Positions 7,666 through 31,269 of a DNA stretch of 64,000 bases are shown here, one piece after another. Both the position numbers and the translations under genes were made by a program. The notes beneath the pieces were generated by a model, which did no database searches, had not been told where the DNA came from, and worked only from the letters and a program-made list of their open reading frames with translations. This DNA is from a virus: positions 1 through 64,000 of IMG/VR virus record IMGVR_UViG_3300042197_004429. One strand, written 5' to 3'. Within the stretch, counting starts at the first letter, position 1, and every line of letters begins with the position of its first letter.

Positions 7666-7701
7666 AACATTACTCTTATAACATAGGTAATATCAATATC
7701 T

Positions 7702-7995
7702 ATGTCTGGAAAAATAGAAATAAAAGAGTTGGTTTTTTTGACCCCAGCAAAATTAAAAATTGTTATTGATGGTCAAGAAAAAACTATGATGGTGAATGTG
7801 GATTTAGTTAATAAAAAAGTCTATTCCCAAACTGGTGATTCTTTTCACAGCGATCATATTTTTTCTTATTTAGATTCAATGTATATTCTTCCAGAAGATT
7901 TTTTCTCATCTTCGGAAGAGGTCAATGAAGAAGTGGCCGAAGCAGAGAAAACAGTTGATGAGATAATGAAACAAGACATAGGAGAAATAATATGA
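7702..7995 (+). CDS. hypothetical protein
   Basis: ORF coupled to the next gene (ATGA overlap). Confidence 0.65.
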   Translation: MSGKIEIKELVFLTPAKLKIVIDGQEKTMMVNVDLVNKKVYSQTGDSFHSDHIFSYLDSMYILPEDFFSSSEEVNEEVAEAEKTVDEIMKQDIGEII

Positions 7996-8288
7996 GCGAA
8001 GCCGGTTCCATAAAGGCTCAAGTTTACATTCCAGGCAAGTCTGGTGGAAAACTACAGAGACAGTTGACTTTGGATACTATAGTTAATTGGATCAAAGTAC
8101 AGGGTTTGGATGAGTACACAACTAATGGACTCATAGAATTAGCAAAAAGATATCCCACACAAGCTTTTCCTAGTTTTAGAAAAAATTTTAATTTAATGAT
8201 TGAAAGAGTAAGAGCAAAAAGAAAAAAAGAAATTAATGCTAATTGTGATTTAAAAGAAGAGAAATCTAAAGAATTGGATGATTTATGA
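7992..8288 (+). CDS. hypothetical protein
   Basis: ORF with overlapping start/stop on both sides. Confidence 0.65.
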   Translation: MSEAGSIKAQVYIPGKSGGKLQRQLTLDTIVNWIKVQGLDEYTTNGLIELAKRYPTQAFPSFRKNFNLMIERVRAKRKKEINANCDLKEEKSKELDDL

Positions 8289-8491
8289 ATGTTTCTATTT
8301 TGGTTAGTATAGCTCGCCAAGTTATGGGAGAATATGTTTTTGTTCGTGTTATAAAAGCCGATAAAAATAGTGAAAATTTATTTAAATTTTTAAGAGAAAA
8401 CGAACTTCCAAGAACAACCAAAATAGGCGAAATAGAGTGTTTTATAGAATATGGCGTAATAGAAAATATAGAAGTTGATGGCTTGAGCTAA
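8285..8491 (+). CDS. hypothetical protein
   Basis: ATGA-coupled ORF. Confidence 0.55.
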   Translation: MNVSILVSIARQVMGEYVFVRVIKADKNSENLFKFLRENELPRTTKIGEIECFIEYGVIENIEVDGLS

Positions 8492-8501
8492 CTTATATCC
8501 T

Positions 8502-8543
8502 TGCCACCAAAAAACCCAATTCCTTAGGGGTTGGATAGTTCAC
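8502..8543 (-). mobile_element. possible IS200/IS605-type end remnant (hairpin)
   Basis: Minus strand GTGAACTATCCAACCCCTAAGGAATTGGGTTTT resembles IS200/IS605 terminal hairpins; a similar sequence lies at 59716-59757. It could also act as a terminator between convergent genes. Confidence 0.3.
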
Positions 8544-9193
8544 TTTGTAACTATCATTAAATTTTTAATAGAGTGTTTGTCGGTGAGACCCCCCGTCTGC
8601 CCATAAAACCTTAATCTATATAAACTTATTTGATCATCAGGCGCATCAAATAAATCACAATCCTCCGTAAATAAACCAACAGATCCTCCGGTTAAGACTT
8701 GATCTATTGAAAAGTTTAAGTTTCTTTTTACATTATCTATTTCAAAAGAAACATTTCGATAATTGTTTTCTCTTAAAGAATTGTTGCTAAAAAATCTTCT
8801 TCCAGAGTTATCTCTATAAATTTTAATTCCTACCCCATCTCCGTTGTTGTATGTGTCTAAAAACATACGAATTCCATTTGAAAGATAAGAACCAGAACCC
8901 AGGAGAGGTCTTGCTGCAATTCTTGATAATTCAAACCCCAAACCATCGGCTCCGCTTCCTTCAAAAATTCTATAATCAAAAATTATTTTAAAATATCTAC
9001 TAGAACCAACTCTTACATTTAAAAACTCTGCTGATCCAAAAGAGTTTGATATATTTGGTGTTAAAATTAATTCATTATTTGATATTAAAGCATCCCCTGA
9101 CAACGATATATTGCTAAGATTAGAAAAATCGAAATTGTATATAGTATAATCAAAAGAAGTCGATACTATTTTGTGTACTAATCCTCCAAACAT
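8540..9193 (-). CDS. L-type (ConA-like) lectin domain protein, probable tail/receptor-binding component
   Basis: LSGDALISNNELILTP...GSA, YRIFEGSGADGLGF; start set at the TAATG overlap 9193. Confidence 0.6.
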   Translation of the reverse strand: MFGGLVHKIVSTSFDYTIYNFDFSNLSNISLSGDALISNNELILTPNISNSFGSAEFLNVRVGSSRYFKIIFDYRIFEGSGADGLGFELSRIAARPLLGSGSYLSNGIRMFLDTYNNGDGVGIKIYRDNSGRRFFSNNSLRENNYRNVSFEIDNVKRNLNFSIDQVLTGGSVGLFTEDCDLFDAPDDQISLYRLRFYGQTGGLTDKHSIKNLMIVTK

Positions 9194-9588
9194 TAATAAT
9201 TTTGTCCCCCTATAAAACCAAACCAATTTACGCCTTTGTTTATTGTTACAAAACTAAAAAAATCTTTTTTGTTTGTAAAAATTGTTATTACAGGTGCTGT
9301 ATTCGCTGGCCATTTAATACTACTTGGCCAAGAAATAGTTCTATTGGATCCAGATGTCGTTATCACCATAGTAAAGGCAACAACTATATTGTCTAAATTT
9401 GGAACATTTAATATATTTAAAGTATTAACATTTTGATCTAAATTAATCAAAAAAACATTGCCTTGATTTAGGTCTATACTGAGAATTCCGCTTGAAATAT
9501 TTACATTTGTGTGAATTTCTTTATAATTTGAAAAAATTGCATCGGTAACCTTATAATTTGGTAATGCTAGTTTGTTTTTTATTGTCAT
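9193..9588 (-). CDS. phage tail-fibre-associated beta domain protein
   Basis: IDLNQGNVF...RTISWPSSIKWPANTAP.IT...DFFSF...WFG pattern, common in phage fibre proteins. Confidence 0.65.
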   Translation of the reverse strand: MTIKNKLALPNYKVTDAIFSNYKEIHTNVNISSGILSIDLNQGNVFLINLDQNVNTLNILNVPNLDNIVVAFTMVITTSGSNRTISWPSSIKWPANTAPVITIFTNKKDFFSFVTINKGVNWFGFIGGQNY

Positions 9589-9914
9589 TATTTAGATTCT
9601 CTCCACTTTAACCATTCTTGAAAAGTTGGAAGAGATTTTTTGTATACTTCGTCTTTTTTGCAATCACAATCTCCTTCACAATCACAATCTTTTTCTTTCA
9701 TGGCTTTTTGTATAGCTTTTCCTCTTTTTTTCTCATAAGATGATAATTTCCCATCCCCATCCAGATCTGCTTTTTCTTTATTTATCTCGTGGTCGTCATT
9801 GTAATCATCTTTACTTTTTGATTTTTTATTTTTTTTACTGTTTAGAATAGCATTTTGTAATTTTTCGGGCAGTTTTCTTTGTGCCGGTGTGAGACCGTTA
9901 TTTGATTTTTTCAT
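9588..9914 (-). CDS. phage hypothetical protein
   Basis: ADLDGDGKLSSYEKKRGKAI motif; strong SD (GAGGAG); C-terminal TFQEWL motif. Confidence 0.7.
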   Translation of the reverse strand: MKKSNNGLTPAQRKLPEKLQNAILNSKKNKKSKSKDDYNDDHEINKEKADLDGDGKLSSYEKKRGKAIQKAMKEKDCDCEGDCDCKKDEVYKKSLPTFQEWLKWRESK

Positions 9915-9995
9915 AATATTTCTCCTCTTCTTAATTTATCTAGTTTTTTTTCGAAAAATTTTTCACACAAACTATCTTAAAAAGAGGTAAACTTT

Positions 9996-10727
9996 ATGAA
10001 TCAACCATTTAACCCTTTAGAATCACCTTCAGACAAGCCAACTTTAAGTTTTAACTTGAACGATGGGTCTAACGAACAAGTCTCTATCATTGTAGTTCAC
10101 CACAACAGACCTGAGTACTTAAATATATGCCTTCAGTCTATTCATGCAATGAGTAATCTTAATAATTATGAGGTAATAGTTGTTGATAATGCATCAGATC
10201 AAGAGACTCAAGAATATTTAGAAGTGCTTCAACAAGAGGGAATTAAGGTAATTAAAAATAAAACTAATGAATATTGGTCAAAAGCCGCAAATCAAGGTGT
10301 TGCCGTTGCTGATCCAAATTCAAAATATTTCATTTTCATGCACGCCGATACGGTTGTTTTAGACCCAGCTTGGATAGATGTTATGGTAAACCTGTCCGAA
10401 AGCAGGTCTGCCGGTGTTGTGGGGACAAGTCTTCATGCATATTATATTCAAAAGCAACAAGTTAATTTTGTTCAAGAATATTGTATGCTAATTAGTCGCC
10501 GTTGTTGGGAAGATATTGGACCATGGCCAGAAGAACTTCCACTTGTTGGCATGTCTTTCATTATGACTTTGCGGGCACAATATAAAGGCCACACGCCTCA
10601 AGCAATTGGCAATAATATTGTTCATCATTATAAAGCTTTTGGAATGGACCCAAGCGAATACGAGAGAATGTGTGAACAAGCTATGGGAATAGTCGGCAAA
10701 TTGATGGCCGCAGCACAAAAAAAATAA
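9996..10727 (+). CDS. glycosyltransferase family 2
   Basis: SIIVVHHN...CLQSI, VVDNAS, AANQG, FMHADT. Confidence 0.88.
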   Translation: MNQPFNPLESPSDKPTLSFNLNDGSNEQVSIIVVHHNRPEYLNICLQSIHAMSNLNNYEVIVVDNASDQETQEYLEVLQQEGIKVIKNKTNEYWSKAANQGVAVADPNSKYFIFMHADTVVLDPAWIDVMVNLSESRSAGVVGTSLHAYYIQKQQVNFVQEYCMLISRRCWEDIGPWPEELPLVGMSFIMTLRAQYKGHTPQAIGNNIVHHYKAFGMDPSEYERMCEQAMGIVGKLMAAAQKK

Positions 10728-10728
10728 T

Positions 10729-11865
10729 CTAAACGTTTGTTGCCCTTAAGGGCATTATTTGACGCCCAGATTTTCCTATAATTCCAATTTGATCATTGAT
10801 GTTAATTCTCGTAGCCCCACGAACAACCGACCCGTTAATTATAGTCTGATTAACTGCTGTGGTGTTTGGTATTAAATACCAGCCGTTACTTGCTTTTTGA
10901 ATTCTGAATTGAATATTTGAAAAGTATTGTGCCAACGGACCCAAAGATGAACCCAAAACAGGTTGGCCTATTTGTGTATCAATATTAATTGTCAAAGGTC
11001 TATTTCCGCCAGAAAGAACTAATGTTTTTGGTTGATAGTCTTGAGAAGCAGAGCCGACAGGTTGGGGAGCAGAACCAGCGGGCTGTTGCGTTTCTCCCCT
11101 TATGTAAGGAGACGCCACAGGATCAGACATTAAGAACTCTTGTTCTGTTTTTTGCCAATGGTTTGAACTAGCAAATTTTGGGGCAGGAGATCCGGGTTTA
11201 CTGACTAAAATCGCCGCCAATCTTAGAGATATAAGTTGTGTCTGACTGAGACTTACTCCGTGTCCTCCTTTAAAGTCTTGTCCTACGTCTGTGCTCAACC
11301 CTAAACGGGATATTTTTTGTCTTAATTCATCTATATTCTCTTCTCCAAGTTTTGATAAATAAACAATAAAGTTGTCTCTGCGTGTTTCAAAACCACCACC
11401 AAAAGCAGAAAACTTAAACTGCCTGACAAAATTTGAATTTTGTTTAATTATTTTTGCCAATTCCAATAATAAGTTTATTTTATCTGTTGGTATCTTTATG
11501 TGTATTTTATTTTTGGCACCATCTGGCTTGTATCCAGGTATTGCGAAAAAGTAGAAAGGATCAGTGGAATCCAAGGGGGTAAATCCCAATGATGCAATTT
11601 GTGAATTAAGAGATGCAATTTGACGGTCTAATTCAGGGTTTTGTTTTTCATTTCCTTTGTCGCCAGCGATATTGTTATAAAAAGTCTCTGACCATTTATG
11701 TCCCAAAATAGCGTGTCTATTTGTGTCAAAATTAGGAACTATCCCCGCACCGGACAAACTTTTTATTGCGGCCTGATATGTGGGTGCGGCTAAAATCAAT
11801 GAAGATAATCTTTTGAAGATATCTTCGGCACTCTCCATATTTTCTAACCAAAGTTTAAATCGCAT
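10729..11865 (-). CDS. putative phosphothreonine-lyase-like domain fused to a degenerate FHA-like domain; capsid-targeting-like N-terminus
   Basis: MRFKLWLE start; KIHI...FK...R..NFIVY...SLR pattern; C-terminal QFRI...GWYL.P.....NQTIING...I..NDQIGI. Confidence 0.5.
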   Translation of the reverse strand: MRFKLWLENMESAEDIFKRLSSLILAAPTYQAAIKSLSGAGIVPNFDTNRHAILGHKWSETFYNNIAGDKGNEKQNPELDRQIASLNSQIASLGFTPLDSTDPFYFFAIPGYKPDGAKNKIHIKIPTDKINLLLELAKIIKQNSNFVRQFKFSAFGGGFETRRDNFIVYLSKLGEENIDELRQKISRLGLSTDVGQDFKGGHGVSLSQTQLISLRLAAILVSKPGSPAPKFASSNHWQKTEQEFLMSDPVASPYIRGETQQPAGSAPQPVGSASQDYQPKTLVLSGGNRPLTINIDTQIGQPVLGSSLGPLAQYFSNIQFRIQKASNGWYLIPNTTAVNQTIINGSVVRGATRININDQIGIIGKSGRQIMPLRATNV

Positions 11866-21865: not shown

Positions 21866-23461
21866 ATGTCCAACAATAATATTTTTTCAACTAAAATTAA
21901 ACCTTCCGCAAACACAAAAAATAATGCTGGTGGCGATGCTTATGATTTTGATCCAAAGCATTGTTTGGCTCAAGTTGCTGCCACAAACACGTTTAATGGA
22001 ACCTTTTATGCAACCGCAGAGCAAAACTTTAATTTAGCTAAAGTAGCCGCATTGCGTTTAAAAAATGACCCAGAATTTATTGCAAAAGTAGCAATTTATT
22101 CTCGTGACAAGTCCTACATGAAAGACATGCCTTGCTTCCTAACGGTGTTGCTCTCGGACATTAGCAAGCCTTTGTTTCGCAAGGTTTTTCGTCGTGTAGT
22201 TGACAATGGAAAAATGCTTCGAAATGTTATTCAAATGGCTCGAAGTGGGGTCGTGACTGAGAAAAAAATTAATGTGTCGTCGGGAAGTTGGAGACACGCT
22301 ATACAAGAGTGGTTTAATACTCAAAGCCCATCTAGTATTTTCAAGGCTTCTATAGGTAATAATCCAACTATGCATGACATTTTAAGAATGTCTCATCCTA
22401 AACCAAACTCAATTGAAAAACAATCATTATTTGCCTACCTCTCTGGGAAAGAATTTGATCTTGAAAAACTTCCACATCAAGTTAGAAAACTTCAAGACTT
22501 CAAGTCTGGCAAAACAAAAGATGTCCCCGATGTTGATTTTAGGTTTTTAGATTCTTTGAACCTTGGTCAAAAAGAGTGGGAGATAATTGCCTCTCAATCT
22601 CCGTGGCAAATGATGAGAATGAATCTTTCAACCTTTGCTAGACACGGTGTTTTCAACAACGAAAAAGTTGTTGAGATTGTGGCAAACAAATTAAAAGACG
22701 AGGAATTGATCAAAAAATCTCGTGCTTTCCCATACCAATTGTTTGCCGCTTGGAGGCAGATTGAGAATCAAGATGTTCCACAAATAATCAAATCAGCACT
22801 GGAATCCGCAATGGAAATTGCAATAAGCAACGTTCCAGAAATTCCAGGCAAAGGTTTGGTTTGCGTTGACTGCTCTGGATCTATGGGTTCACCAATAACT
22901 GGTTTTAGACACCGCACAGGTAACTCAAGTGTTTCTTGTAGTGACGTTGCTGGATTATTAGCATCTGCCGTGTATAGAAAAAATAAAAGAGTTGAGGTTT
23001 GGACTTTTTCTGATAATGCTAATATGGTTAAATTGAACCCAGAAAATAATGTGTTAAAAAACACAGAGAAATTAAACCTTGCTGGAGGTGGCACAAATAT
23101 ATCGGCACCAATACATCGTTTTAATAAAGACTATAAAAACGCAGATTGGATTTTGTATGTATCGGATTATGAATCTTGGATTGATTCTTCTTCCACCAGT
23201 TACGACTACAACACTGGTTACGGCTATAAATCCACCAGTTTGTCTTATGAGTGGGATGTTTTCAAGAAGCGTAATAAAAATGCTAAATTAATTTGTTGCG
23301 ATTTGACTCCAAGAGATAATTCTCAAATTTGTACCAAAAAAGACGTTCTGCAAGTCGGAGGATTTTCGGATCAGGTTTTTGAAGTTATTTCCTCCTTTGT
23401 TTCTCAATCTAAAAATGAGGATCATTGGGTTGAAGAAATAAACAAAATATCCTTGGATTGA
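21866..23461 (+). CDS. rsr: Ro60/Rsr TROVE-vWA RNA-binding protein
   Basis: NNAGGDAY, TNTFNGTFY, MMRMNLSTFARHG, FPYQLFAAW, vWA MIDAS DCSGSM, GGGTN, SDYES. Confidence 0.92.
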   Translation: MSNNNIFSTKIKPSANTKNNAGGDAYDFDPKHCLAQVAATNTFNGTFYATAEQNFNLAKVAALRLKNDPEFIAKVAIYSRDKSYMKDMPCFLTVLLSDISKPLFRKVFRRVVDNGKMLRNVIQMARSGVVTEKKINVSSGSWRHAIQEWFNTQSPSSIFKASIGNNPTMHDILRMSHPKPNSIEKQSLFAYLSGKEFDLEKLPHQVRKLQDFKSGKTKDVPDVDFRFLDSLNLGQKEWEIIASQSPWQMMRMNLSTFARHGVFNNEKVVEIVANKLKDEELIKKSRAFPYQLFAAWRQIENQDVPQIIKSALESAMEIAISNVPEIPGKGLVCVDCSGSMGSPITGFRHRTGNSSVSCSDVAGLLASAVYRKNKRVEVWTFSDNANMVKLNPENNVLKNTEKLNLAGGGTNISAPIHRFNKDYKNADWILYVSDYESWIDSSSTSYDYNTGYGYKSTSLSYEWDVFKKRNKNAKLICCDLTPRDNSQICTKKDVLQVGGFSDQVFEVISSFVSQSKNEDHWVEEINKISLD

Positions 23462-23464
23462 ACA

Positions 23465-23492
23465 TTGACAATTTAAAAACTAGGTGTACAAT
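23465..23492 (+). promoter_or_regulatory. sigma70-like promoter for the ncRNA cluster
   Basis: TTGACA-N16-TACAAT, placing the start at about 23499, the first base of the tRNA-like RNA. Confidence 0.7.
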
Positions 23493-23498
23493 AAACTT

Positions 23499-23586
23499 AG
23501 ACAAGTAGCTCAACGGTAGAGTCCGTCATTGCAAGAAGGCTTGCGCCTTTGGACGGAGGTTGCAGGTTCAATTCCTGTCTTGTCTT
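23499..23586 (+). ncRNA. tRNA-like RNA with the anticodon loop replaced by a 24-nt element
   Basis: Acceptor AGACAAG/CTTGTCT, D arm GCTC-AACGGTA-GAGT, stem CCGTC/GACGG, T arm GCAGG-TTCAATT-CCTGT; no CCA. Confidence 0.8.
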
Positions 23587-23752: not shown

Positions 23753-24157
23753 GTGAAAAACAAAATTGCCCTTTTTGTGTCTTTAATTTTAGGTTTGTTT
23801 TTTGTTTTCATTATTTCTAGTGTGGAAAACAAAAAAACTAGCCCAACAATCGTTAAAAAAATTGAACAAGAAGATAATTTTCTCTCCGAAAAAAGTACAG
23901 AACTTGACGAGTCAAAAATTTACAAGATGGCTTATCAAAGAGGGTTTAATTCTTTTATGAGACGAGTGGGAAGGCCAGATCTTGTTAGTGATAATAATGA
24001 TAAAATTGAGATGTATACATCGAATATAATCGCAGAAGCATCAGCCGAGGAGAAGCAAAAGATAGAAGAGATATCAGCCAAGGCTTATGTTGATGGGTAT
24101 CATAAAGCCGGTGACTCGACTGTTTGTCCCAGATTCAAGGATTCAAGATATCATTAA
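23753..24157 (+). CDS. membrane-anchored hypothetical protein
   Basis: GTG start 23753 with GGAG SD, TM helix, internal repeat AYQRGF/AYVDGY. Confidence 0.6.
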   Translation: MKNKIALFVSLILGLFFVFIISSVENKKTSPTIVKKIEQEDNFLSEKSTELDESKIYKMAYQRGFNSFMRRVGRPDLVSDNNDKIEMYTSNIIAEASAEEKQKIEEISAKAYVDGYHKAGDSTVCPRFKDSRYH

Positions 24158-24870
24158 TCATTTGATGGCCTTGGAATGTAATTTTTTGGGTAAATACCCT
24201 GCGGATTGTTTTTGTCTATTATTGGTATTTTTTCCAGCAGAGTGGATGCCTTTCCGGGGAAAACATCATTTTTCCCATATATAACCATTATCCAGCCTCC
24301 CCATAATTTATTAAACTTGTCCATACTCCAAGTTTGTACCCTCAAACTTCTGTCGGAGTTGTCTATAATTTTTACAATTTTATTTTTTTCATCGTAGTGA
24401 CAAATCACTATCGCATGACCGGGAACGTCCATTAAAGCACCACGACCTTCCTCCATCGCACGTTTTAATAATTCTATAGCTTTAATTTTATTATTATATA
24501 CATTTTCAAATTTCACTCCAAAAGTATCTAATTTATAAGAAGCATCTTTGGGACCAGAGTAGCTTTTGCACCCCGGTCTGCTGGTTAAAGGATCCGGCTC
24601 TAAGAGTTCTTTTATTTCTCCCCAACGAGCCAAGCACTCCAAAGATGAAAAAACACACTGTATGCCTGTGTAATTTCTAACTCTGCACTCCATCGGTATG
24701 GGACATTGTACATCTTTTAGCTCATCTTCTTCTGGAGTTCCAGAGTCGTATTCTTGTGTGTAGGTTGTGCTATAGTTCAAATCCCAGACAGGTAATTGGG
24801 AAAAATTTTTTTCTTTTTGTGTACAACCAGAAACAAAAAACAAAAAGATTACGATTAAAATTTTTCTCAT
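24154..24870 (-). CDS. lipoprotein with a C39-like papain-fold cysteine peptidase domain
   Basis: Lipobox VSGC; QCVFSSLE (Cys), GHAIVI (His), IIDN (Asp); start ATG 24870 with GGAGG SD. Confidence 0.7.
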   Translation of the reverse strand: MRKILIVIFLFFVSGCTQKEKNFSQLPVWDLNYSTTYTQEYDSGTPEEDELKDVQCPIPMECRVRNYTGIQCVFSSLECLARWGEIKELLEPDPLTSRPGCKSYSGPKDASYKLDTFGVKFENVYNNKIKAIELLKRAMEEGRGALMDVPGHAIVICHYDEKNKIVKIIDNSDRSLRVQTWSMDKFNKLWGGWIMVIYGKNDVFPGKASTLLEKIPIIDKNNPQGIYPKNYIPRPSND

Positions 24871-24941
24871 TACAGCCTCCTTGCGTAATACTCTAATATT
24901 TAGTATTATCAATTAATCATATTTTAAAATGATACACGATT

Positions 24942-25919
24942 ATGTTTAAATCAATTACAAAAGAACAAGCAAGGAATCTCGTCTTGGAGATACTCAAGAA
25001 ATCGGGGAAGAGATTGGGTCAAGAACTACAGGGTGATAACGAAGAGTTCTTAGATCGCTTGCTGAGGCAATTTAAAACAAAAATTGCACGTTGTTCTTGG
25101 AAAAAATCACAACATTGGTGCAAGTGGGATAATGATGGTCCAATACTTATGCCCGACTTCACCAGAATATATTACACCAAAGGCAACACAGAGGTGCTTG
25201 TTCAAGAATTTGCCCCTCAAATTAGATTGTTAAAGTTCAAGGGTGATTTAGTCCTCAAATCAAATAATTTTGATCTAATCGAAAACAAATCTGATCTCGC
25301 TAAAGTTTTTAATTATTCTTTGTCTCTTCCTTATGTTGTTTTTATTTTTAAATTTGTAGATGGATTATTTGCGGAAGTTAAGTGTTCTTTTTTAGATAAG
25401 CCTCTTAAAAATCTACAAGAAAAACCATTAAAACCTTACTTGCCAAATATTGATTCTAACTTAAATGTGTGCCTCGGTTCAGGTTTTGATAAATCTATGT
25501 TGGAAAAAGGAAACGTAACCCAACAATCGGCTTTAGTTTTAAATTATTTTTGGAACTCGGTTTTTTCAAACGAATGGGCGGATCATTATTGGTATTATCG
25601 TTCTTATTTTCAAAAAGGCGATATTCGTTTATCAAACTTGGATTCCTGGCAGTCTAACTCTATGAACGATCCTCTTTTTGTAATAGATGGTGTTAATTGG
25701 GCATACAACTCGGAGTTTAATTATGGTGATACTATAGTTAAGATGTTTGATAATGATAAAAAGAATATAGCATTACAAGAAGAGTTATATCAAGAACTAT
25801 CCGAAGATTTTTTAAAAGAGGTTGTTAAAATAATTAATGAAAATATAGAAAACCTCAACAACAGACCCCCAGAAAATTTAGTTGATCAATTAGCTGATTA
25901 CCTCGTTTCTAACTCCTAA
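24942..25919 (+). CDS. prokaryotic E2 (ubiquitin-conjugating-like) family protein
   Basis: YSLSLPYVVF, PYLPNIDSNLNVCLG (E2 HPN..C-like signature, Cys177), FWNSVFS. Confidence 0.75.
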   Translation: MFKSITKEQARNLVLEILKKSGKRLGQELQGDNEEFLDRLLRQFKTKIARCSWKKSQHWCKWDNDGPILMPDFTRIYYTKGNTEVLVQEFAPQIRLLKFKGDLVLKSNNFDLIENKSDLAKVFNYSLSLPYVVFIFKFVDGLFAEVKCSFLDKPLKNLQEKPLKPYLPNIDSNLNVCLGSGFDKSMLEKGNVTQQSALVLNYFWNSVFSNEWADHYWYYRSYFQKGDIRLSNLDSWQSNSMNDPLFVIDGVNWAYNSEFNYGDTIVKMFDNDKKNIALQEELYQELSEDFLKEVVKIINENIENLNNRPPENLVDQLADYLVSNS

Positions 25920-25924
25920 TTAAA

Positions 25925-26839
25925 ATGAATAAAGACTGGACCCCAGACTTTCCTGTTTATGTCTATTATAAGGACATGAAACTTCCAGATAGCGGTAATT
26001 ATTTTGTGATTGCCGGTAATGGTTGCTGGATGCATAAAGACACAGGTTTGTGTAAGTGTTTCATACCAGTTGATAAAATTAGTTTTTTAGACGATCTTAA
26101 AACTGACATAAAACTAGAGATTGATTTGCCAAAAATACCTTTGGATTTGGTTTGGCAAATCAAACAATTTTTTAAAATTGTTTTTGATAATTATTCATCA
26201 GAATCTGAAATTAACTTATTATTTAATAAAAAAGAAAATAAGTTTAAGATTCACGTTCCACAACAGATTGTTAGTCATACTAGTGTTAAATATAAACGTT
26301 GGAGCGCAAATCAGGCAGAAGATTTAAAGGATTATTTATTTGTTGGCACTTTCCACTCTCATAGTGATTTTGACTCGTTTCACAGCCACACTGACGTTCA
26401 AGACGAGACACACTTAGATGGTGTTCATTTTACTTTTGGCAACAACGATAAGCAAGAATTTAGTATAACAGCAAGTATAGTTATAAATGGATTTAGAAAA
26501 GAAGTAGATCCTTTAAATTTTTTACAAGGAATTCAAAAGTCGGATCTTGAAGAAAGGTATATTTTTGTTAATCATAAAAATGAAAAACAAAATGAATTAT
26601 TGCAACAAGTTAACGATTGGTTAGAAAATGTAAAACCTTTAAATAATAATTATCTAAAAAAACAATACGCACACTGGAAAGAGGGTATGTTTTCTTCTAC
26701 TTTGAGAAATCATTTTGGCGATGGTCCTTTCGAGGTTTTATCAAAAAAAGAAGACAAAATATCATTAAAATTACCCGATGGTGGTGACTTTGAATTATCA
26801 AATAAACTTTTTGAAATAGGACCAAAAGATGGAAAATAA
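25925..26839 (+). CDS. JAB/JAMM metalloprotease (deubiquitinase-like)
   Basis: Upstream Glu (SESEI), VPQQIVS, exact HxHx7Sx2D motif HSHSDFDSFHSHTD, DGVHFTFG. Confidence 0.88.
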   Translation: MNKDWTPDFPVYVYYKDMKLPDSGNYFVIAGNGCWMHKDTGLCKCFIPVDKISFLDDLKTDIKLEIDLPKIPLDLVWQIKQFFKIVFDNYSSESEINLLFNKKENKFKIHVPQQIVSHTSVKYKRWSANQAEDLKDYLFVGTFHSHSDFDSFHSHTDVQDETHLDGVHFTFGNNDKQEFSITASIVINGFRKEVDPLNFLQGIQKSDLEERYIFVNHKNEKQNELLQQVNDWLENVKPLNNNYLKKQYAHWKEGMFSSTLRNHFGDGPFEVLSKKEDKISLKLPDGGDFELSNKLFEIGPKDGK

Positions 26840-27539
26840 TATAGAAAAAATTAAAATTATAGGCTTGGGGGGAATTGGCTCTTATCTTTTGGATCCAATC
26901 TCCAGGTATCTATCTCATTCCGAAAAACAATATGAGATAACTTTTATCGATGGCGATTTTTATGAAGAAAAAAATTTAGATAGACAAAACTTTAGTTTAT
27001 TTCAAAACAAAGCGAAGGATGCATTTGAGAGAATGCAAAGCGTTTTTAAAAAAATTCATTTTAAATATAAGCCTGAGTATGTGAATGAAGATAATGTGGT
27101 TTCTTTAATAAGAAATAATGATATAATATTTCTATGCGTAGATAATCACTCCACTAGAAAAACTGTGTCGGACAGGTGCAAAGAATTAGACAATGTTGTT
27201 TTAATAAGTGGGGGAAATGATTTAATAGATGGCAATGTTATAGTTTACACTAGAAAAAACTCAATCGATATCACACGATCTTTAACGGATTTGGATCCAA
27301 GAATATCCAATCCAAAAGATACTAATCCTTCAACTTTAAAAAACAATAGTGGTTGTCAAAACTCTGCACAGTCAGAGCCTCAATTGCTTTTTACAAACTT
27401 TGCTGTTGCTTCTATGATGTTAAATTGTTTTAGAAGATTTGAAAATAATGATGTTAATTTTCATCAAGTTTATATTGATATACAAACCTTAAGAACTAGA
27501 CCTTCACCAGAGGTAGAAATTGAAAAGAGGAATTTTTAA
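26829..27539 (+). CDS. ThiF/E1-like ubiquitin-activating enzyme
   Basis: GLGGIG, DGDFYEEKNLDRQ, CVDNHSTR, SGGN, putative catalytic Cys176 in SGCQ...Q...N; no CxxC Zn pairs. Confidence 0.88.
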   Translation: MENNIEKIKIIGLGGIGSYLLDPISRYLSHSEKQYEITFIDGDFYEEKNLDRQNFSLFQNKAKDAFERMQSVFKKIHFKYKPEYVNEDNVVSLIRNNDIIFLCVDNHSTRKTVSDRCKELDNVVLISGGNDLIDGNVIVYTRKNSIDITRSLTDLDPRISNPKDTNPSTLKNNSGCQNSAQSEPQLLFTNFAVASMMLNCFRRFENNDVNFHQVYIDIQTLRTRPSPEVEIEKRNF

Positions 27540-27859
27540 TGTCACAAGAAAGAATAATAGACCAAGGTGATTTAACAAACAAAAGAGATGTTTCGGACAT
27601 TTCAAAAGATAAAACAGAGATTGTTTTTTCTCAAGCAACAAAATCTGATTCTAAGGTAAGAGTTGTTCATGGGGCTAATCAAGAATATTTTGATTTAGCC
27701 GGAAAGACTGTTGGGTCTGTTAGAAAAAACTTAAGGGAAATTTTCAATATACCTAGCGATGCAGAAGCCCTCATCTCAGGAAATGCTGTTCCTGATGATT
27801 TTATTCTTGAAGGTGGTCAATCTCTTGAATTTTTAAAAGAAAGTGGAGTAAAGGGTTAG
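27539..27859 (+). CDS. ubiquitin-like (beta-grasp) protein ending in Gly
   Basis: VRVVHG...DLAGKTVGSVR..L..IFNIP....ALISG..V.DDFIL..GQSLEF.KESGVKG; TAATG-coupled to E1. Confidence 0.78.
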   Translation: MSQERIIDQGDLTNKRDVSDISKDKTEIVFSQATKSDSKVRVVHGANQEYFDLAGKTVGSVRKNLREIFNIPSDAEALISGNAVPDDFILEGGQSLEFLKESGVKG

Positions 27860-27863
27860 TGTT

Positions 27864-28484
27864 TTGAAAAAATGTGCTTCTTTTATTGAAACTAGAATTG
27901 GTGATAAATATATTGATTCTATAAACAATCACTTAAGACACTTGAGTGGTTGGGATTTTTTTATTTTAACTACAAAAAAATCTTGGAATAGTTTTTATAA
28001 TTGCTTAAATTTAAAATTTAAAAGTATTAATGAAATAAAAGATTCAAATGATTATAATAAAATGCTTACTAGTTTTGATTTTTGGAATTTTTTTGTGAAA
28101 AAAAAATATGATAGAGTTTTAATATGCCAACACGACGCTGGTTTGCTTTTGAATAATATTGATGATTATTTAGAGTATGATTATGTTGGATCTCCTTGGG
28201 ATTTTCAAGAACATGGCGGCAATGGCGGCTTGTCTTTAAGAAATCCCAAAGTTATGATGGAGATATGTTCCAATTTTTTATTTGATAAAAGTTATTTTAA
28301 TGAGGATATCTTTTTCTGTGATGTTATGCACAAAGAAAAAATAGGCAATCTTGCTCCACGAGAAGTTTGTAAAAAATTTTCTATGGAAGTAATACTAGAA
28401 TTAAACACGACAGGATATCACGGAATAGAAAAATATCACCACCCTGATGTTGTCGATAGAATAAAATCTCAAGAAGTTATTTAG
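27864..28484 (+). CDS. glycosyltransferase-like protein (DUF5672-like)
   Basis: LICQHDAG, YDYVGSPW, GGNGGLSLRN, NEDIFF. Confidence 0.75.
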   Translation: MKKCASFIETRIGDKYIDSINNHLRHLSGWDFFILTTKKSWNSFYNCLNLKFKSINEIKDSNDYNKMLTSFDFWNFFVKKKYDRVLICQHDAGLLLNNIDDYLEYDYVGSPWDFQEHGGNGGLSLRNPKVMMEICSNFLFDKSYFNEDIFFCDVMHKEKIGNLAPREVCKKFSMEVILELNTTGYHGIEKYHHPDVVDRIKSQEVI

Positions 28485-28503: not shown

Positions 28504-31269
28504 CTATTCGGTTGTTAATGTTGCTATTTGACGACTCATTTTTCTAATTGGTTGTTTTTTTGGAACGATGCCTTTTTGTCTATTTTTTATAATTTTTGGC
28601 ACATAAGCAAAATCACAAGGATCGCCTATATCGCACCAACCGCCATCAACTTGAGATCTCAAATCGTTAACTTCCTGTGGTTGTTCTTCTTTGAATTCTA
28701 TTAATTTAGATTTTTTAATTAATTGTGTTTTCAGAATATTATCGCTGGCTAAAGCATAGCCATAACTTGTTGTTCTTTTCAAGAAAGGTTTTAGGTTCTC
28801 GCTTCTGGCTCTTCCACCAGTTTTTGCAAATCCTGTAATTGGAGGAGGTCCATAAAATTGCGTTAAAGAATGAAAGCCTTTGCAGGTAACGCCTTTTGTT
28901 GGGAATATATTGAAATATATATTTTCTTTATTTTCTCCATTTAAACTTATGCCCCCTTCAATATAGGGTTGAATTCCTATTACAAAATTGCCTCCCACAA
29001 TAGAGGATCCCGAAATATCTTGATTGTATCTTGACTTTATGTCGATTAACCCACTGGCACTTATCCCAAAAGACTCTATGACAATGTTATACAGTGCAAC
29101 ATTCTCTGCCTGCGGAGAAACAAAACAACCGCCCGTCACACTCACAGACAAGGATTTTTCAGATTCCCCGGATGTTGTTACTCCCCCTGCAATATCGGAG
29201 TTGCAAATTAATTGATCGACAGCCGATCCACTGATTGAAGACCCACCTGAGGATACTTCGTTGTCGAACATTCCCACATTCGATGTGCCGCCCAATACCA
29301 AATCGGTATTATTTTTTGCCGATCCGCTTACCCAAACTAATCTTCTTTCTCCTCCTAAGAAGCCATTATCCAAAGAACTGTAGCTCAAAGGGCCAGGAGT
29401 TGAGAAGTTGGCACCGGGAGTGTTTCCGGCTGCAACCGTTACAGTAATCAGTCCAAAGCCAAATAAAGTTGAGCGGCCATTTTGTGGAGGCGTGCTTATA
29501 TTTCTAAATATTCTAAAGCCAGGCAAAGCTGTGTAACTTAACCTTCCTGGAAATTGTCCATTATAAAATGCAATTGGAAAAGACTCTGGAGCATTTAAAA
29601 TATATGTTCCAGATTGCAGTCCGTAGAAATTAGATTCACGATCATTGTTAAAAACATACTCAAGTTGACCATTTATTCCCGTTGGTCTTACACGAACCTC
29701 ATTAATCACGGGGTTGTTAGGATCTAGTGAGGGTCTTAGTAACGATATTTTTTGCCAATTTCCATTTAAAACTCTTCCATCAACGGCAGACCCTCCCAAA
29801 ATTAAATTGCCGTTGCCCGTTGATACTTCTAAATCCAATGCCGCCGATCCAGATAAGTTAATTCCATTTGTTGGCTCAAATGTCGGGTAAGACACAAGCG
29901 ACAAGCCTGACGCTATAAGTGATTTAGAAACGTCAACAGATACGTTGTTTGTTTGTTTGTTTTCAGCGTCTCCGTTTAAAACTAAACCACCGCTTCCAAA
30001 CTCAAAAATATTTTGAGTGTAAAAAACTGATATCTCCGCATAATCAACTAAACCAACTGAGTTGAGTGCTGGATCTCCTAAAACCTCTAAAACTATACCA
30101 AAATCTTGGTGATTAACTTCATTGTAGTTCCATGTTTTGCCCCAAGTATCTGTGTTTCCTCCATACTCATATGGAAAAAAAACAGAAGAGGATGTCCAAT
30201 TTCCATTTAATTTTTTGTTTGTTGGTACTATTTCTTTGGTTCCATTATTGTTCCAAACTAATCCAACAAAAGAGTCAGATACCTCTCCTGTTGGAGCGTA
30301 TTTTTTAATTTTAAGTGATATTCCAAGCACCACACTAAACTCAGGAATTTCTAATTTAAAATTAGATAAATATAAAAATGTACTTGAACCAACCGATGAA
30401 TTGAATGTTACTATAGCTGTCTGGAAGTCATTTGGCGAGAGTGATCCATTTAAGTTATTCCAACTAATAGCCCCACTTACCCCTGTTGGTAAATTGTTTG
30501 CTGTGTGTGCAAAATTTTTGATCGGATTAGACAATCTTCCAACGACATCAGACAAGCCGCCTGTTTTTAATCCGTAACCATCTACAATAAATTGGTTTAA
30601 ACGAACTGCCGACCCACCTAAAGCAACGCCCCCGGTTGCCAAAACGTCTTTTTGAACTCTGACTCCTGCTTCTCCTGATGCAAAGAATAAATTATCAGGA
30701 ACAATAAATCTTGTTATTCTTCTTTCTATCGCATCTCCGCCAAGAATCGCATCAGTGTTTGGTCCAACGCACGATGTTGAATAAACAAGATTATTTAATC
30801 CGCCTAAATAGCCATTATCGTATGATTGATAACTTAAAGGAGAATTTCCTATATTTGCTGTTATTGTTAAAGTTACTAATCCCCAGAAAAAGTCATATTT
30901 ATTGCCATCTAGAGCAGTCTTGTTCCCCTTAAAGTTTGTTCCTATGTAATTGACTCGCAGTCTCCCGTTATTTAAAAAAGCAATAGGGTTAGACTCTGGT
31001 ATGTTGAATTTATAAGTTCCTATAGCCAGTCCGTATTTCCCGAATTCTCCACCAAAAACATAAACATTTTCTCCATTTACGTTTTTTATTTCAACATTAT
31101 TTGTAACAACACTTGTCCCAGTTGTGGTTGGAGATTGTCTTAAACAAATAAGATCTTCAAGGTCTCCATTATAAATTGTTGAAATGTCCGAGGAGCCACC
31201 GTTAAATAAACCGCCAAATACGGATTCTGAGTACTCAGATTGTGCGGATAGATTAATTTCTTTGGCCAT
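28504..31269 (-). CDS. large Gly-rich virion structural protein (921 aa)
   Basis: Repeated L-GG-x-A motifs; two internal copies of a GTY....P.S.PIAF.N...PLSY.S.DNGYLGG module; CTAAATA upstream. Confidence 0.65.
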   Translation of the reverse strand: MAKEINLSAQSEYSESVFGGLFNGGSSDISTIYNGDLEDLICLRQSPTTTGTSVVTNNVEIKNVNGENVYVFGGEFGKYGLAIGTYKFNIPESNPIAFLNNGRLRVNYIGTNFKGNKTALDGNKYDFFWGLVTLTITANIGNSPLSYQSYDNGYLGGLNNLVYSTSCVGPNTDAILGGDAIERRITRFIVPDNLFFASGEAGVRVQKDVLATGGVALGGSAVRLNQFIVDGYGLKTGGLSDVVGRLSNPIKNFAHTANNLPTGVSGAISWNNLNGSLSPNDFQTAIVTFNSSVGSSTFLYLSNFKLEIPEFSVVLGISLKIKKYAPTGEVSDSFVGLVWNNNGTKEIVPTNKKLNGNWTSSSVFFPYEYGGNTDTWGKTWNYNEVNHQDFGIVLEVLGDPALNSVGLVDYAEISVFYTQNIFEFGSGGLVLNGDAENKQTNNVSVDVSKSLIASGLSLVSYPTFEPTNGINLSGSAALDLEVSTGNGNLILGGSAVDGRVLNGNWQKISLLRPSLDPNNPVINEVRVRPTGINGQLEYVFNNDRESNFYGLQSGTYILNAPESFPIAFYNGQFPGRLSYTALPGFRIFRNISTPPQNGRSTLFGFGLITVTVAAGNTPGANFSTPGPLSYSSLDNGFLGGERRLVWVSGSAKNNTDLVLGGTSNVGMFDNEVSSGGSSISGSAVDQLICNSDIAGGVTTSGESEKSLSVSVTGGCFVSPQAENVALYNIVIESFGISASGLIDIKSRYNQDISGSSIVGGNFVIGIQPYIEGGISLNGENKENIYFNIFPTKGVTCKGFHSLTQFYGPPPITGFAKTGGRARSENLKPFLKRTTSYGYALASDNILKTQLIKKSKLIEFKEEQPQEVNDLRSQVDGGWCDIGDPCDFAYVPKIIKNRQKGIVPKKQPIRKMSRQIATLTTE

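What the first reader, a model, noticed from the sequence alone, without database searches (positions are those of the whole stretch)
24942..27859. Complete phage-encoded ubiquitin-like conjugation operon: E2-JAB-E1-Ubl
Seen: four translationally coupled genes (5-nt gap, 11-nt overlap, TAATG overlap). They are an E2-like protein with LPNI....VC (Cys177), a JAB protease with an exact HxHx7Sx2D motif and a ~100-aa C-terminal extension, a minimal ThiF/E1 with GxGxxG, NLxRQ, DN..R and a candidate catalytic Cys176, and a beta-grasp Ubl ending ...SGVKG. Established: E1+Ubl alone serves sulfur transfer (ThiF/ThiS, MoeB/MoaD), whereas an E2 plus a JAB marks protein-conjugation systems. The bacterial Bil anti-phage system uses the same four components to attach a Ubl to phage structural proteins. 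No thiamine/Moco/thiolation genes are in this window. Inference: a virus carrying its own ubiquitylation machinery, to tag host proteins, modify its own virion/assembly proteins, exclude competing phages, or neutralise host Ubl defence (the JAB as eraser, the Ubl as decoy). I am not aware of a characterised phage-encoded full set.
Basis: partly seen in the sequence, partly recalled or inferred. Interest (0 to 1): 0.9.

Follow-up and report, generated by a model that had tools for sequence, protein, structure and literature searches.

The report
Huge-phage ubiquitin-like conjugation operon
A giant T4-like phage carries four tightly packed genes that look like a complete kit for attaching a small ubiquitin-like tag to other proteins; the kit is a divergent, phage-specific branch of a cassette (PRTRC) long annotated on bacterial mobile elements, and nobody has established that cassette's function.

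Summary
Four co-directional, coupled genes (24942-27859) encode an E2-like protein, a JAB/JAMM peptidase, a minimal ThiF-type E1 and a beta-grasp Ubl.

Evidence for each part:
- E1: Pfam ThiF at 70.6 bits, with an invariant Cys176.
- JAB: all JAMM residues are conserved (E93, H144, H146, S154, D157).
- Ubl: the model's top 50 listed PDB matches are ubiquitin-type beta-grasp folds (NEDD8, ubiquitin, SUMO, MoaD; one TGS domain). Gly106 is invariant, and 15 of 19 homologues carry variable tails after it.
- E2-like: no direct Pfam hit. It has a weak UBC-like fold (Z about 5) and invariant N169-x7-C177. It links by transitive homology to Pfam Prok-E2_D.

The cassette is not a Bil, Bub or CBASS member. 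NCBIfam places its JAB and E1 nearest PRTRC_A and PRTRC_ThiF, which I equate, by inference, with operon type 6d of Iyer et al. 2006. It lacks the other PRTRC proteins that I searched for.

Relatives sit in more than 40 metagenomic or viral loci, some on contigs of 239-459 kb. More distant relatives are in Victivallales, Chloroflexota and CPR assemblies. BLAST found no match for the E2-like or JAB protein in 50,697 GenBank phage records.

Most likely it is a working E1-to-E2 thioester cascade in which the JAB matures and removes the tag. The target is unknown. I rate it a new variant of a known, uncharacterised kind.

The parts
24942..25919 (+). E2-like (UBC-fold) protein of 325 aa. The core spans about residues 62-270 and carries invariant N169-x7-C177-x-G179. 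Long helices flank it at 7-60 and 273-324. It is a divergent relative of Pfam Prok-E2_D / PRTRC protein B.
   Evidence: The protein itself has no Pfam, PADLOC or PHROG hit. The AF2 model has pLDDT 83. In the VIA re-alignment of Foldseek's hits, 46 of the top 50 rows are UBC E2 enzymes, with Z 4.5-5.4, rmsd 4-5 A (mostly) and 105-128 residues aligned, over model residues 67-250. hhalign to the upstream paralogue family gives probability 100%, E 6.8e-42. 16 of 21 paralogues hit Prok-E2_D, best E 3e-7. Distant relatives found with this protein's profile reach the Prok-E2_D cut-off: P0250 at 32.7 bits and P0317 at 25.0. The nearest ESM Atlas clusters carry Prok-E2_D.
25925..26839 (+). JAB/JAMM metallopeptidase of 304 aa. 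The PRTRC_A-like region spans about residues 20-190, with E93 and H144-x-H146-x7-S154-x2-D157. A poorly conserved C-terminal extension of about 110 aa follows.
   Evidence: Pfam Prok-JAB gives E 3.2e-5 at 24.2 bits against a cut-off of 25. NCBIfam PRTRC_A TIGR03735 gives E 1.9e-8 at 34 bits over profile positions 22-187 of 192. The motif residues are conserved in 31 homologues.
26829..27539 (+). Minimal single-domain ThiF-type E1 adenylyltransferase of 236 aa. It has GLGGIG at 12-17 and D41, R52, K61 and D105. Invariant Cys176 lies in the loop just before the helix that follows the crossover region.
   Evidence: Pfam ThiF gives E 1.5e-19 at 70.6 bits. NCBIfam PRTRC_ThiF matches over its full length (13-240 of 245) at 51.9 bits, and MoeB partially at 52.8 bits. 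PDB sequence matches include MoeB 1jw9 at E 1e-5. There is no rhodanese domain and no CxxC zinc motif in the sequence.
27539..27859 (+). Ubiquitin-like protein of 106 aa. It has a conserved N-terminal MSQER motif, a variable low-confidence linker of about 30 aa (pLDDT under 50) that the model extends into a short helix, and a beta-grasp domain at 39-103. It ends G103-V-K105-G106 followed by a stop.
   Evidence: There is no significant Pfam or PDB sequence hit. In the AF2 model residues 41-100 average pLDDT about 90. All 50 listed Foldseek PDB matches are beta-grasp folds, 49 of them ubiquitin-type or MoaD (NEDD8, ubiquitin, SUMO, MoaD) and one a TGS domain; probability is 1.00 for all but one (0.99), with rmsd about 2-3 A over about 70 residues in the better rows. 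Among 19 homologues, 4 end at the Gly and 15 continue with unrelated tails of 1 to about 180 aa, including a GNAT fusion. The window reads ESGVKG*CFEKMCFFY* where the closest relative reads ESGVKGFEKMCFFY*.

Best explanation
This is a phage-borne, divergent member of the PRTRC / type 6d class of E2-JAB-E1-Ubl cassettes, and it most likely works as a real protein-tagging pathway.

Inferred mechanism, by analogy with characterised E1/E2 systems:
- The E1 adenylates the C-terminal Gly106 of the Ubl and takes it onto Cys176 as a thioester.
- The Ubl passes to Cys177 of the E2-like protein.
- The E2 transfers it to lysines of target proteins without a separate E3. Its helical arms and, in most relatives, a second E2-like paralogue are candidate target-recognition or oligomerisation parts.
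- The JAB peptidase cuts precursor tails off after the conserved Gly, and probably also removes the tag from targets.

Shown here: the four folds and families, conservation of all catalytic residues, and the precursor tails. Inferred: the thioester chemistry, conjugation to proteins, and the dual role of the JAB. The target is unknown. Because relatives sit on ICEs, plasmids, prophages and huge phages, I think a role in conflict between mobile elements and hosts, or between rival elements, is more likely than housekeeping.
For: - All four components are identified independently.
- Catalytic residues are invariant or nearly so across 19-31 homologues each.
- The spacing N169-x7-C177 equals that from the Asn of the HPN motif to the catalytic Cys in classical E2s. 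The classical spacing is from my knowledge of UBC enzymes; the alignment is.
- Variable tails after an invariant terminal Gly are the hallmark of Ubl precursors that a protease matures. The closest relative has an 8-aa tail where the window has a stop, and the tail codons persist after that stop. One relative fuses a GNAT enzyme behind the Gly.
- The four genes travel together in more than 40 phage-type loci and in bacterial assemblies, with the gene order shuffled in Chloroflexota (Ubl-E2-JAB-E1). That argues for a functional unit rather than mere synteny.
- There is no rhodanese domain on the E1 and no sulfur-transfer gene in the operon.
Against: - There is no biochemical evidence for this cassette, and I found none for any PRTRC / 6d cassette in the searched literature.
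- The E2 fold match is only moderate: Z about 5 with rmsd 4-5 A, and Foldseek E of 0.1-0.4.
- The protein itself fails every direct Pfam E2 model.
- It lacks the conserved histidine that Iyer et al. noted in 6d E2s.
- The Ubl ends in KG rather than GG.
- Bub systems show that E1/E2 look-alikes can use unexpected chemistry, namely oxyesters (PMC11601596). The assumed thioester steps could therefore be wrong in detail.
- No target and no E3 is evident.
Confidence: 0.65

Rival explanations
1. Sulfur-carrier system. The E1 adenylates the Ubl, which is then thiocarboxylated, as with ThiS, MoaD or TtuB, and donates sulfur for a cofactor or for tRNA or DNA thiolation. On this reading the E2-like protein is an accessory.
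For: By sequence the E1 is as close to MoeB and ThiF as to anything else. The Ubl gives faint ThiS and TGS hints, and MoaD appears among its fold matches. The phage carries its own tRNAs.
Against: A conserved E2-like protein with an invariant Cys is always present. There is no rhodanese domain, cysteine desulfurase or thiolase partner in the operon. The Ubl ends in KG, not the GG of the known sulfur carriers (my knowledge). Long C-terminal fusions such as the GNAT point to a ubiquitin-style precursor.
Confidence: 0.07
2. Counter-defence kit. Its main job is to neutralise host Ubl-based immunity such as Bil or Type II CBASS. The JAB would strip host tags from phage proteins, and the Ubl, E1 and E2 would act as decoys or competitors.
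For: Host Bil tags phage tail proteins (10.1101/2023.09.04.556158). A phage would benefit from an eraser, and the JAB active site is intact.
Against: Erasing a tag needs only a peptidase, yet the E1, the E2 catalytic Cys and the Ubl terminal Gly are all strictly conserved. There is no sequence similarity to Bil or CBASS components beyond the generic ThiF fold. Relatives also occur on bacterial chromosomes.
Confidence: 0.08
3. The Ubl is conjugated to something other than a protein, such as a lipid (as with Atg8-PE) or another small nucleophile.
For: Relatives in CPR assemblies have an E2-like domain behind an N-terminal region with several hydrophobic, membrane-like segments. No E3 or protein target is evident.
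Against: The window's E2-like protein has no hydrophobic segments. Every characterised bacterial E1/E2 system conjugates to proteins (PMC11601603, PMC11601596).
Confidence: 0.08
4. The E2-like protein is a non-catalytic UEV/RWD-like adaptor. The E1 alone would conjugate or merely activate the Ubl, as with archaeal SAMPs.
For: The fold match is weak. There is no direct Pfam E2 hit, and the classical histidine is missing.
Against: N169 and C177 are invariant in the protein family, in its paralogue and in distant relatives. Inactive E2 folds typically lose the Cys (Iyer et al. 2006, PMC1779556).
Confidence: 0.08

Closest known systems
PRTRC system (ParB-Related, ThiF-Related Cassette; TIGR03734-03742), which I equate with operon type 6d of Iyer, Burroughs and Aravind 2006 (PMC1779556). 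It is found on ICEs, plasmids, genomic islands and a Phocaeicola prophage, and its function is unknown.
   Same: It has the same four core families. The JAB matches PRTRC_A. The E1 matches PRTRC_ThiF over its full length. The E2-like protein belongs to the Prok-E2_D / PRTRC_B superfamily by transitive homology. There is a small Ubl with a terminal Gly. Both live on mobile elements.
   Different: All scores are far below the NCBIfam cut-offs (34 against 101.8, and 52 against 144.75). No PRTRC_C or PRTRC_E match and no adjacent ParB was found. Proteins D and F were not searched for. The Ubl belongs to a different sequence family. The E2 carries long helical arms and lacks the conserved His. The E1 tree separates canonical PRTRC from the phage-type group by a long, fully supported branch.
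Bil (BilABCD) anti-phage system, Types I and II
   Same: The parts list is the same: Ubl, E2, JAB deubiquitinase and E1, as four separate genes with no E3. In Bil the Ubl is conjugated through its terminal Gly, and some homologues carry short tails after that Gly (10.1101/2023.09.04.556158).
   Different: [quoted passage not shown] Here the E1 is a 27-kDa single domain. Type I Bil Ubls have two beta-grasp domains. PADLOC 2.0.0 (2023) gave no match to any defence-system model for the E2, JAB or Ubl. Bil is bacterial and acts against phages, whereas this cassette is in a phage.
Bub (6E / DUF6527) operons
   Same: They also combine an E1, an E2, a Ubl and a JAB-type peptidase, and some Ubls have N-terminal extensions (PMC11601596, PMC11601603).
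   Different: Bub proteins are fusions (Ubl-E2, JAB-E1 or E2-E1). They lack catalytic cysteines, work through oxyesters, and include the DUF6527 serine protease. Here the genes are separate and the cysteines are invariant. I did not search for DUF6527.
Type II CBASS Cap2/Cap3
   Same: E1 and E2 chemistry is paired with a JAB peptidase. The window E1 gives weak PADLOC hits to the E1 part of the Cap2-type E1-E2 fusion models.
   Different: Cap2 is an E2-E1 fusion that conjugates the CD-NTase itself. It has no free Ubl, and no CD-NTase is present here.
Lambda/T1 tail-assembly proteins TAPI (Ubl) and TAPK (JAB plus NlpC/P60)
   Same: This is the only previously described phage pairing of a Ubl that has a terminal Gly with a JAB peptidase (PMC1779556).
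   Different: It has no E1 or E2, lies in a tail gene cluster, and shows no sequence relation detected here.

Membership tests
UBC/E2 superfamily | UBC fold: a beta-meander followed by a loop bearing the catalytic Cys, then helices | tested here: inconclusive
   In the VIA second look, 46 of 50 rows are E2 enzymes, but at Z 4.5-5.4 and rmsd 4-5 A. Foldseek gives E 0.1-0.4. The order of secondary-structure elements fits, with two extra strands.
UBC/E2 superfamily | Conserved catalytic Cys about 8 residues after a conserved Asn | tested here: met
   N169 and C177 are invariant in 28 sequences. The equivalent residues are N180/C188 in the paralogue and N179/C187 in 40 distant relatives.
Pfam Prok-E2_D (PF14460) | Score at or above the gathering cut-off of 25 bits | tested here: not met
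   The window protein and its 27 close homologues give no hit. Membership of the wider superfamily rests on transitive links only.
JAMM/JAB metallopeptidase | E ... HxHx7Sx2D zinc and catalytic motif | tested here: met
   E93, H144, H146, S154 and D157 are conserved. Pfam Prok-JAB scores 24.2 bits, just under its cut-off of 25.
ThiF/MoeB/E1 adenylyltransferase | Pfam ThiF above its cut-off, a nucleotide-binding Gly-rich loop, and the Arg and Asp of the adenylation site | tested here: met
   70.6 bits against a cut-off of 28.1. G12, G14, G15, R52 and D105 are invariant.
Ubiquitin-like beta-grasp modifier | Beta-grasp fold with a C-terminal Gly exposed or released by processing | tested here: met
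   All 50 listed fold matches are beta-grasp folds, 49 of them ubiquitin-type or MoaD and one a TGS domain, with probability 1.00 for all but one (0.99). G106 is invariant and tails after it are variable.
PRTRC system (NCBIfam TIGR03734-03742) | Proteins A, B and ThiF scoring above the equivalog cut-offs | tested here: not met
   The JAB scores 34.1 against 101.8 and the E1 scores 51.9 against 144.75. The E2-like protein gives no PRTRC_B hit.
PRTRC system (NCBIfam TIGR03734-03742) | A ParB-family partner and proteins C and E in the cassette | tested here: not met
   No PRTRC_C or PRTRC_E was found in the 177-kb record. The only ParB-like hit is a weak N-terminal match about 75 kb away. The record is an estimated 74% complete. 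Proteins D and F were not searched for.
Bil (BilABCD) | E1 with the IAD-AAD-CYS architecture (about 53 kDa) | tested here: not met
   The E1 is 236 aa (27.3 kDa) with a single ThiF domain. The Bil architecture is from PMC11601596 and the size from 10.1101/2023.09.04.556158.
Bub (6E) | Fused Ubl-E2 and JAB-E1 (or E2-E1), no catalytic cysteines, and the DUF6527 protease | tested here: not met
   The genes are separate, with invariant C176 (E1) and C177 (E2). DUF6527 itself was not searched for.
ThiS/MoaD sulfur-carrier pathway | A thiocarboxylate forms on the Ubl, with a sulfur donor (rhodanese or cysteine desulfurase) and an acceptor enzyme | not testable with these tools
   No such domain is on the E1 and no such gene is in the operon. 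The chemistry needs an experiment.

The most novel reading that the evidence does not exclude
Huge T4-like phages of environmental bacteria run their own complete ubiquitin-like conjugation pathway (E1, E2, deconjugase and a processed Ubl) during infection, tagging host, rival-phage or their own proteins. That would make it the first self-contained protein-tagging system of a bacterial virus, and it would give the long-enigmatic PRTRC cassettes of plasmids, ICEs and prophages a function.
Probability: 0.5. Interest if true: 0.8.

Novelty: new variant of a known kind. Interest (0 to 1): 0.66.

Why it matters
Bacterial ubiquitin-like conjugation has so far been shown only as host immunity against phages (CBASS, Bil, Bub). 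This is the reverse case: a large clade of phage-encoded cassettes with all catalytic parts intact.
- An exhaustive profile search finds 1012 cluster representatives of the E2-like family at E 0.001 or better.
- Hundreds of E1 clusters are close relatives.
- The nearest ESM Atlas clusters are mostly viral.

The cassette also links the uncharacterised PRTRC / 6d cassettes of mobile elements to huge phages. That suggests a function common to invading DNA. The system is small, consisting of four genes of 11-38 kDa that are predicted to be soluble, so it should be easy to reconstitute. The naturally varying precursor tails offer ready-made substrates for the peptidase.

Tried and rejected
- Direct family assignment of the E2-like protein failed. 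There was no Pfam, PADLOC, PHROG or NCBIfam hit, and no PDB sequence hit with the single sequence or with profiles A1 and A4.
- The whole-model VIA wide search was dominated by coiled coils because of the long terminal helices, so it said nothing about the core.
- Profile searches of the Ubl against PDB sequences and Pfam gave only sub-threshold beta-grasp hints.
- I first read the 570-790-aa relatives as fusions of two E2 domains. A domain table for the three CPR/MAG forms showed one E2-like domain behind an unrelated N-terminal region, hydrophobic and membrane-like in the two forms over 700 aa, so I dropped that idea.
- I looked for a diversity-generating retroelement next to the Victivallales copies, because a reverse transcriptase lies upstream and a preprint reports DGR targeting of PRTRC protein B. 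I found only a repeated intergenic element of about 60 nt, with no template/variable repeat pair.
- The conserved neighbours p252 and p921 are not linked to the bacterial cassettes. I treat them as phage-lineage synteny, not as parts of the system.
- The genome-contig scan with profile A1 found nothing. Alignment A4 was too diverse to scan with. The scan with the paralogue profile A3 succeeded.
- The search for PDB entry 9egc in the literature was uninformative.
Full report
**What is there.** The window is the first 64 kb of an IMG/VR virus record of 177 kb, estimated 74% complete. Its sister record shares this operon at 91-97% protein identity. That record is 459 kb, 91% complete, and encodes a T4-type major capsid protein gp23 at 289 bits. 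The source is therefore a huge T4-like phage.

Four co-directional ORFs occupy 24942-27859. A fifth gene, DUF5672, follows after 4 nt. It is present only in the window and its sister record, so I do not count it as part of the system.

**E1.** ORF 26829-27539 (236 aa, 27 kDa) is a ThiF-family adenylyltransferase, with Pfam ThiF at 70.6 bits. In 23 homologues the following are invariant:
- the Gly-rich loop residues G12, G14 and G15;
- D41, R52, Q53, K61, D105, N106 and R110;
- Cys176.

Cys176 lies in a loop just before the helix that follows the crossover region. That is roughly where ThiF Cys184 and MoeB Cys187 lie; the comparison rests on my knowledge of those proteins plus the offset of the MoeB alignment. 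The protein has no rhodanese domain and no CxxC zinc motif.

**JAB.** ORF 25925-26839 (304 aa) scores 24.2 bits on Pfam Prok-JAB, just under the cut-off of 25. It carries the full JAMM signature, E93 and H144-x-H146-x7-S154-x2-D157, conserved in 31 homologues. The last 110 or so residues are a poorly conserved extension.

**Ubl.** ORF 27539-27859 (106 aa) has no significant sequence hit. An AlphaFold2 model built on 19 homologues gives a confident domain: residues 41-100 average pLDDT about 90, with beta-beta-alpha-beta-beta-beta order. All 50 listed Foldseek PDB matches are beta-grasp folds. Forty-nine are ubiquitin-type proteins or MoaD (NEDD8, archaeal and eukaryotic ubiquitin, SUMO, MoaD) and one is a TGS domain. 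Probability is 1.00 for all but one row (0.99).

The strongest functional clue is the C-terminus. G103, K105 and G106 are invariant. What follows them is not conserved:
- 4 of 19 proteins stop at the Gly;
- 15 continue with unrelated tails of 1 to about 180 residues;
- one relative has a complete GNAT acetyltransferase fused behind the Gly.

The window reads ESGVKG-stop-CFEKMCFFY-stop, where the closest relative reads ESGVKGFEKMCFFY-stop. So the tail is dispensable, and its coding sequence still sits behind the window's stop codon. This is the pattern expected of ubiquitin-type precursors that a peptidase matures.

**E2-like protein.** It gave no direct hit in Pfam, PADLOC, PHROGs, NCBIfam or PDB sequences. 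Four independent lines nevertheless point the same way.

1. *Motif.* N169, C177 and G179 are invariant in 28 homologues of 36-59% identity. The Asn-to-Cys spacing of 8 equals that of the HPN...Cys signature of classical E2s (my knowledge).
2. *Fold.* The AF2 model has pLDDT 83, and over 90 across the core. It shows a beta-sheet, then a long loop bearing N169 and C177, then helices.
   - Foldseek places many E2s among its best PDB matches, but weakly, at E 0.1-0.4.
   - On re-alignment of Foldseek's list, 46 of the top 50 rows are UBC enzymes, at Z 4.5-5.4 and rmsd 4-5 A (mostly) over 105-128 residues, covering model residues 67-250.
   - This is moderate evidence, not decisive.
3. *Transitive homology.*
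   - 21 of 28 related loci with enough upstream sequence have a paralogue directly upstream.
   - The two families align at hhalign probability 100%, E 6.8e-42. The paralogue keeps the Asn and Cys.
   - 16 of 21 paralogues hit Pfam Prok-E2_D, best E 3e-7.
   - An exhaustive profile search with the window's own family finds 1012 cluster representatives. Some of them pass the Prok-E2_D cut-off, for example P0250 at 32.7 bits.
4. *Language-model neighbours.* The nearest ESM Atlas clusters carry Prok-E2_D and are mostly viral.

I conclude that this is a divergent E2-superfamily protein with an intact active-site Cys. Long N- and C-terminal helices flank the core.

**Which family of systems.** NCBIfam places the JAB nearest PRTRC protein A (E 1.9e-8, nearly the whole profile). 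It places the E1 nearest PRTRC_ThiF over its full length. Bacterial relatives found with the paralogue profile show a gradient:
- A Nostocaceae locus has an E1 that passes the PRTRC_ThiF cut-off (147 bits), a canonical Prok-E2_D (148 bits) and sub-cut-off PRTRC_A and PRTRC_B matches, so I take it for a canonical PRTRC.
- Victivallales chromosomal copies, Chloroflexota copies (gene order Ubl-E2-JAB-E1) and CPR-assembly copies are intermediate.
- In each of those groups homologues of all four phage proteins were found, though a few truncated or broken loci show only three.

Among 14 control genomes, Prok-E2_D and PRTRC_E ring only in Bacteroides thetaiotaomicron, and PRTRC_C passes its cut-off only there. 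That species is listed for operon type 6d by Iyer et al. 2006 (PMC1779556, section 14 and Table 1). The 6d type comprises a Ubl, a JAB, an E1-like protein, an E2-like protein and an alpha-helical protein. I therefore equate Prok-E2_D / PRTRC with type 6d; this is an inference.

The window's cassette fails PRTRC membership on scores. I found no PRTRC_C or PRTRC_E, and no adjacent ParB; I did not search for proteins D and F. On an E1 tree a long, fully supported branch separates canonical PRTRC from a group that holds the phage-type clade. The CPR copies are the nearest sisters of that clade (the phage clade itself has only moderate support).

The cassette is not Bil, whose E1 is a multidomain protein of about 53 kDa (PMC11601596; 10.1101/2023.09.04.556158). 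It is not Bub, which has fused proteins, no catalytic cysteines and a DUF6527 protease (PMC11601596). It is not CBASS Cap2/Cap3.

**How it probably works.** The following points are shown here:
- the four folds and families;
- conservation of every residue needed for adenylation, for two thioester steps and for zinc-dependent peptide cleavage;
- the precursor tails;
- co-inheritance of the four genes even where their order differs.

The following points are inferred from characterised E1/E2 systems. The E1 adenylates Gly106 and loads it on Cys176. The tag moves to E2 Cys177 and from there to target lysines, with no E3. The JAB trims precursors and likely reverses conjugation.

The target is unknown. 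The relatives live on ICEs, plasmids and genomic islands (PMC3318190), on a Phocaeicola prophage, and on huge phages. In that prophage PRTRC protein B is a mutational hotspot that its authors attribute to a diversity-generating retroelement (10.64898/2026.10.01.756045). If the E2 surface is deliberately diversified there, it is probably the part that recognises targets. I favour a role in conflicts between mobile elements and hosts, or between rival elements. This last step is speculation.

**Rivals.** Four alternatives remain open; none of them fits the evidence as well.
- *Sulfur carrier.* An invariant-Cys E2 is always present, no sulfur donor is encoded nearby, and the Ubl has a KG terminus and ubiquitin-style fusions. 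All of these argue against it.
- *Pure counter-defence eraser.* It does not explain why the E1, the E2 Cys and the Ubl Gly are strictly conserved.
- *Non-protein target.* Membrane-anchored E2 forms in CPR assemblies hint at this, but the window protein is predicted to be soluble.
- *Inactive, UEV-like E2.* The invariant Cys across all branches argues against it.

**Novelty.** The class has been known by bioinformatics since 2006 and catalogued as PRTRC. I found no experimental work on it in the searched library.

Phage-borne examples exist only as annotations. Bacillus jumbo phage vB_BauM_KLEB27-3 has gp194 (ThiF), gp195 (with a PRTRC_A note) and gp196, which scores weakly on my paralogue model; I found no Ubl there. 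The Phocaeicola prophage preprint is the other case.

BLAST found no match for the window's E2-like protein, its paralogue family or its JAB among 50,697 GenBank phage records. Literature searches found no description of such a system in huge phages.

I therefore rate it a new variant of a known but uncharacterised kind: a large, phage-specific clade with a four-gene core, its own Ubl family and a remodelled E2.

**Limits.**
- Nothing here is biochemical.
- The E2 fold evidence is moderate.
- The contigs assigned to CPR bacteria may themselves be phage or prophage DNA.

Noticed in passing
window 24154-24912 (-): A divergently transcribed neighbour of 252 aa. It has a lipoprotein-type signal (a Cys after L-x-G/S in most homologues) and invariant Cys (GIQCVF), His (PGHA) and Asp/Asn (DNSD) residues, which suggests a secreted papain-like cysteine peptidase. 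It gave no Pfam or PHROG hit. It is conserved next to the operon in 13 phage-type loci but absent next to the bacterial cassettes.
   Followed up: partly
window 28504-31269 (-): A 921-aa Gly/Ser/Asn-rich protein converging on the 3' end of the operon. It is conserved at that position in 12 related loci, and the homologue in L003 carries CHRD domains. It may be a structural or fibre protein. No link to the Ubl system was shown.
   Followed up: partly
window 27539-27556 and alignment A2: The Ubl begins with a nearly invariant MSQER(M/I) peptide (M1 and Q3 are invariant). A variable, low-confidence linker of about 30 aa follows, before the beta-grasp. The purpose of the conserved N-terminal peptide is unexplained; it could be a docking or targeting signal.
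   Followed up: no
window 27864-28484 (+): A DUF5672 protein (Pfam 103.8 bits) starts 4 nt after the Ubl stop. It is found at this position only in the window and its sister record.
   Followed up: partly
window 21866-23586: A Ro60/TROVE-vWA protein (PHROG 850, E 2.6e-44) is followed by an 88-nt tRNA-Ala-like gene. A Ro60 homologue lies a few kb upstream of the operon in many related loci.
   Followed up: no
L034 9579-10436: In one relative the Ubl is fused through its conserved G-x-K-G to a GNAT acetyltransferase domain (Pfam Acetyltransf_1, E 3.5e-11). This resembles a ubiquitin-fusion precursor.
   Followed up: partly
L003 1173-3911: A 912-aa protein in a 239-kb viral contig carries major-vault-protein Shoulder and Vault_3 repeat domains (Pfam E 1.7e-18).
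   Followed up: no
L058 and L059 (Victivallales chromosome), about 7650-11400: A conserved element of about 60 nt (core GTAATGTTTCATACTCCGCAAACAAGTTTGCT) recurs before the E2 gene, before the E1 gene (L058 only) and after the Ubl gene. A small reverse transcriptase and a DUF6908 protein lie just upstream, and a DUF1232 protein lies downstream.
   Followed up: partly
L046 5778-8129 and L047 2593-4731 (CPR assemblies): The E2-like domain sits at the C-terminal half of 712-783-aa proteins. Their N-terminal 350-400 residues contain several hydrophobic, membrane-like segments.
   Followed up: partly
L071 (Bacillus phage vB_BauM_KLEB27-3, record positions 167647-170695): This cultured jumbo phage has gp196 (a weak match to the E2 paralogue model), gp195 (annotated with a PRTRC_A domain) and gp194 (ThiF) in a row. 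No Ubl was detected.
   Followed up: partly
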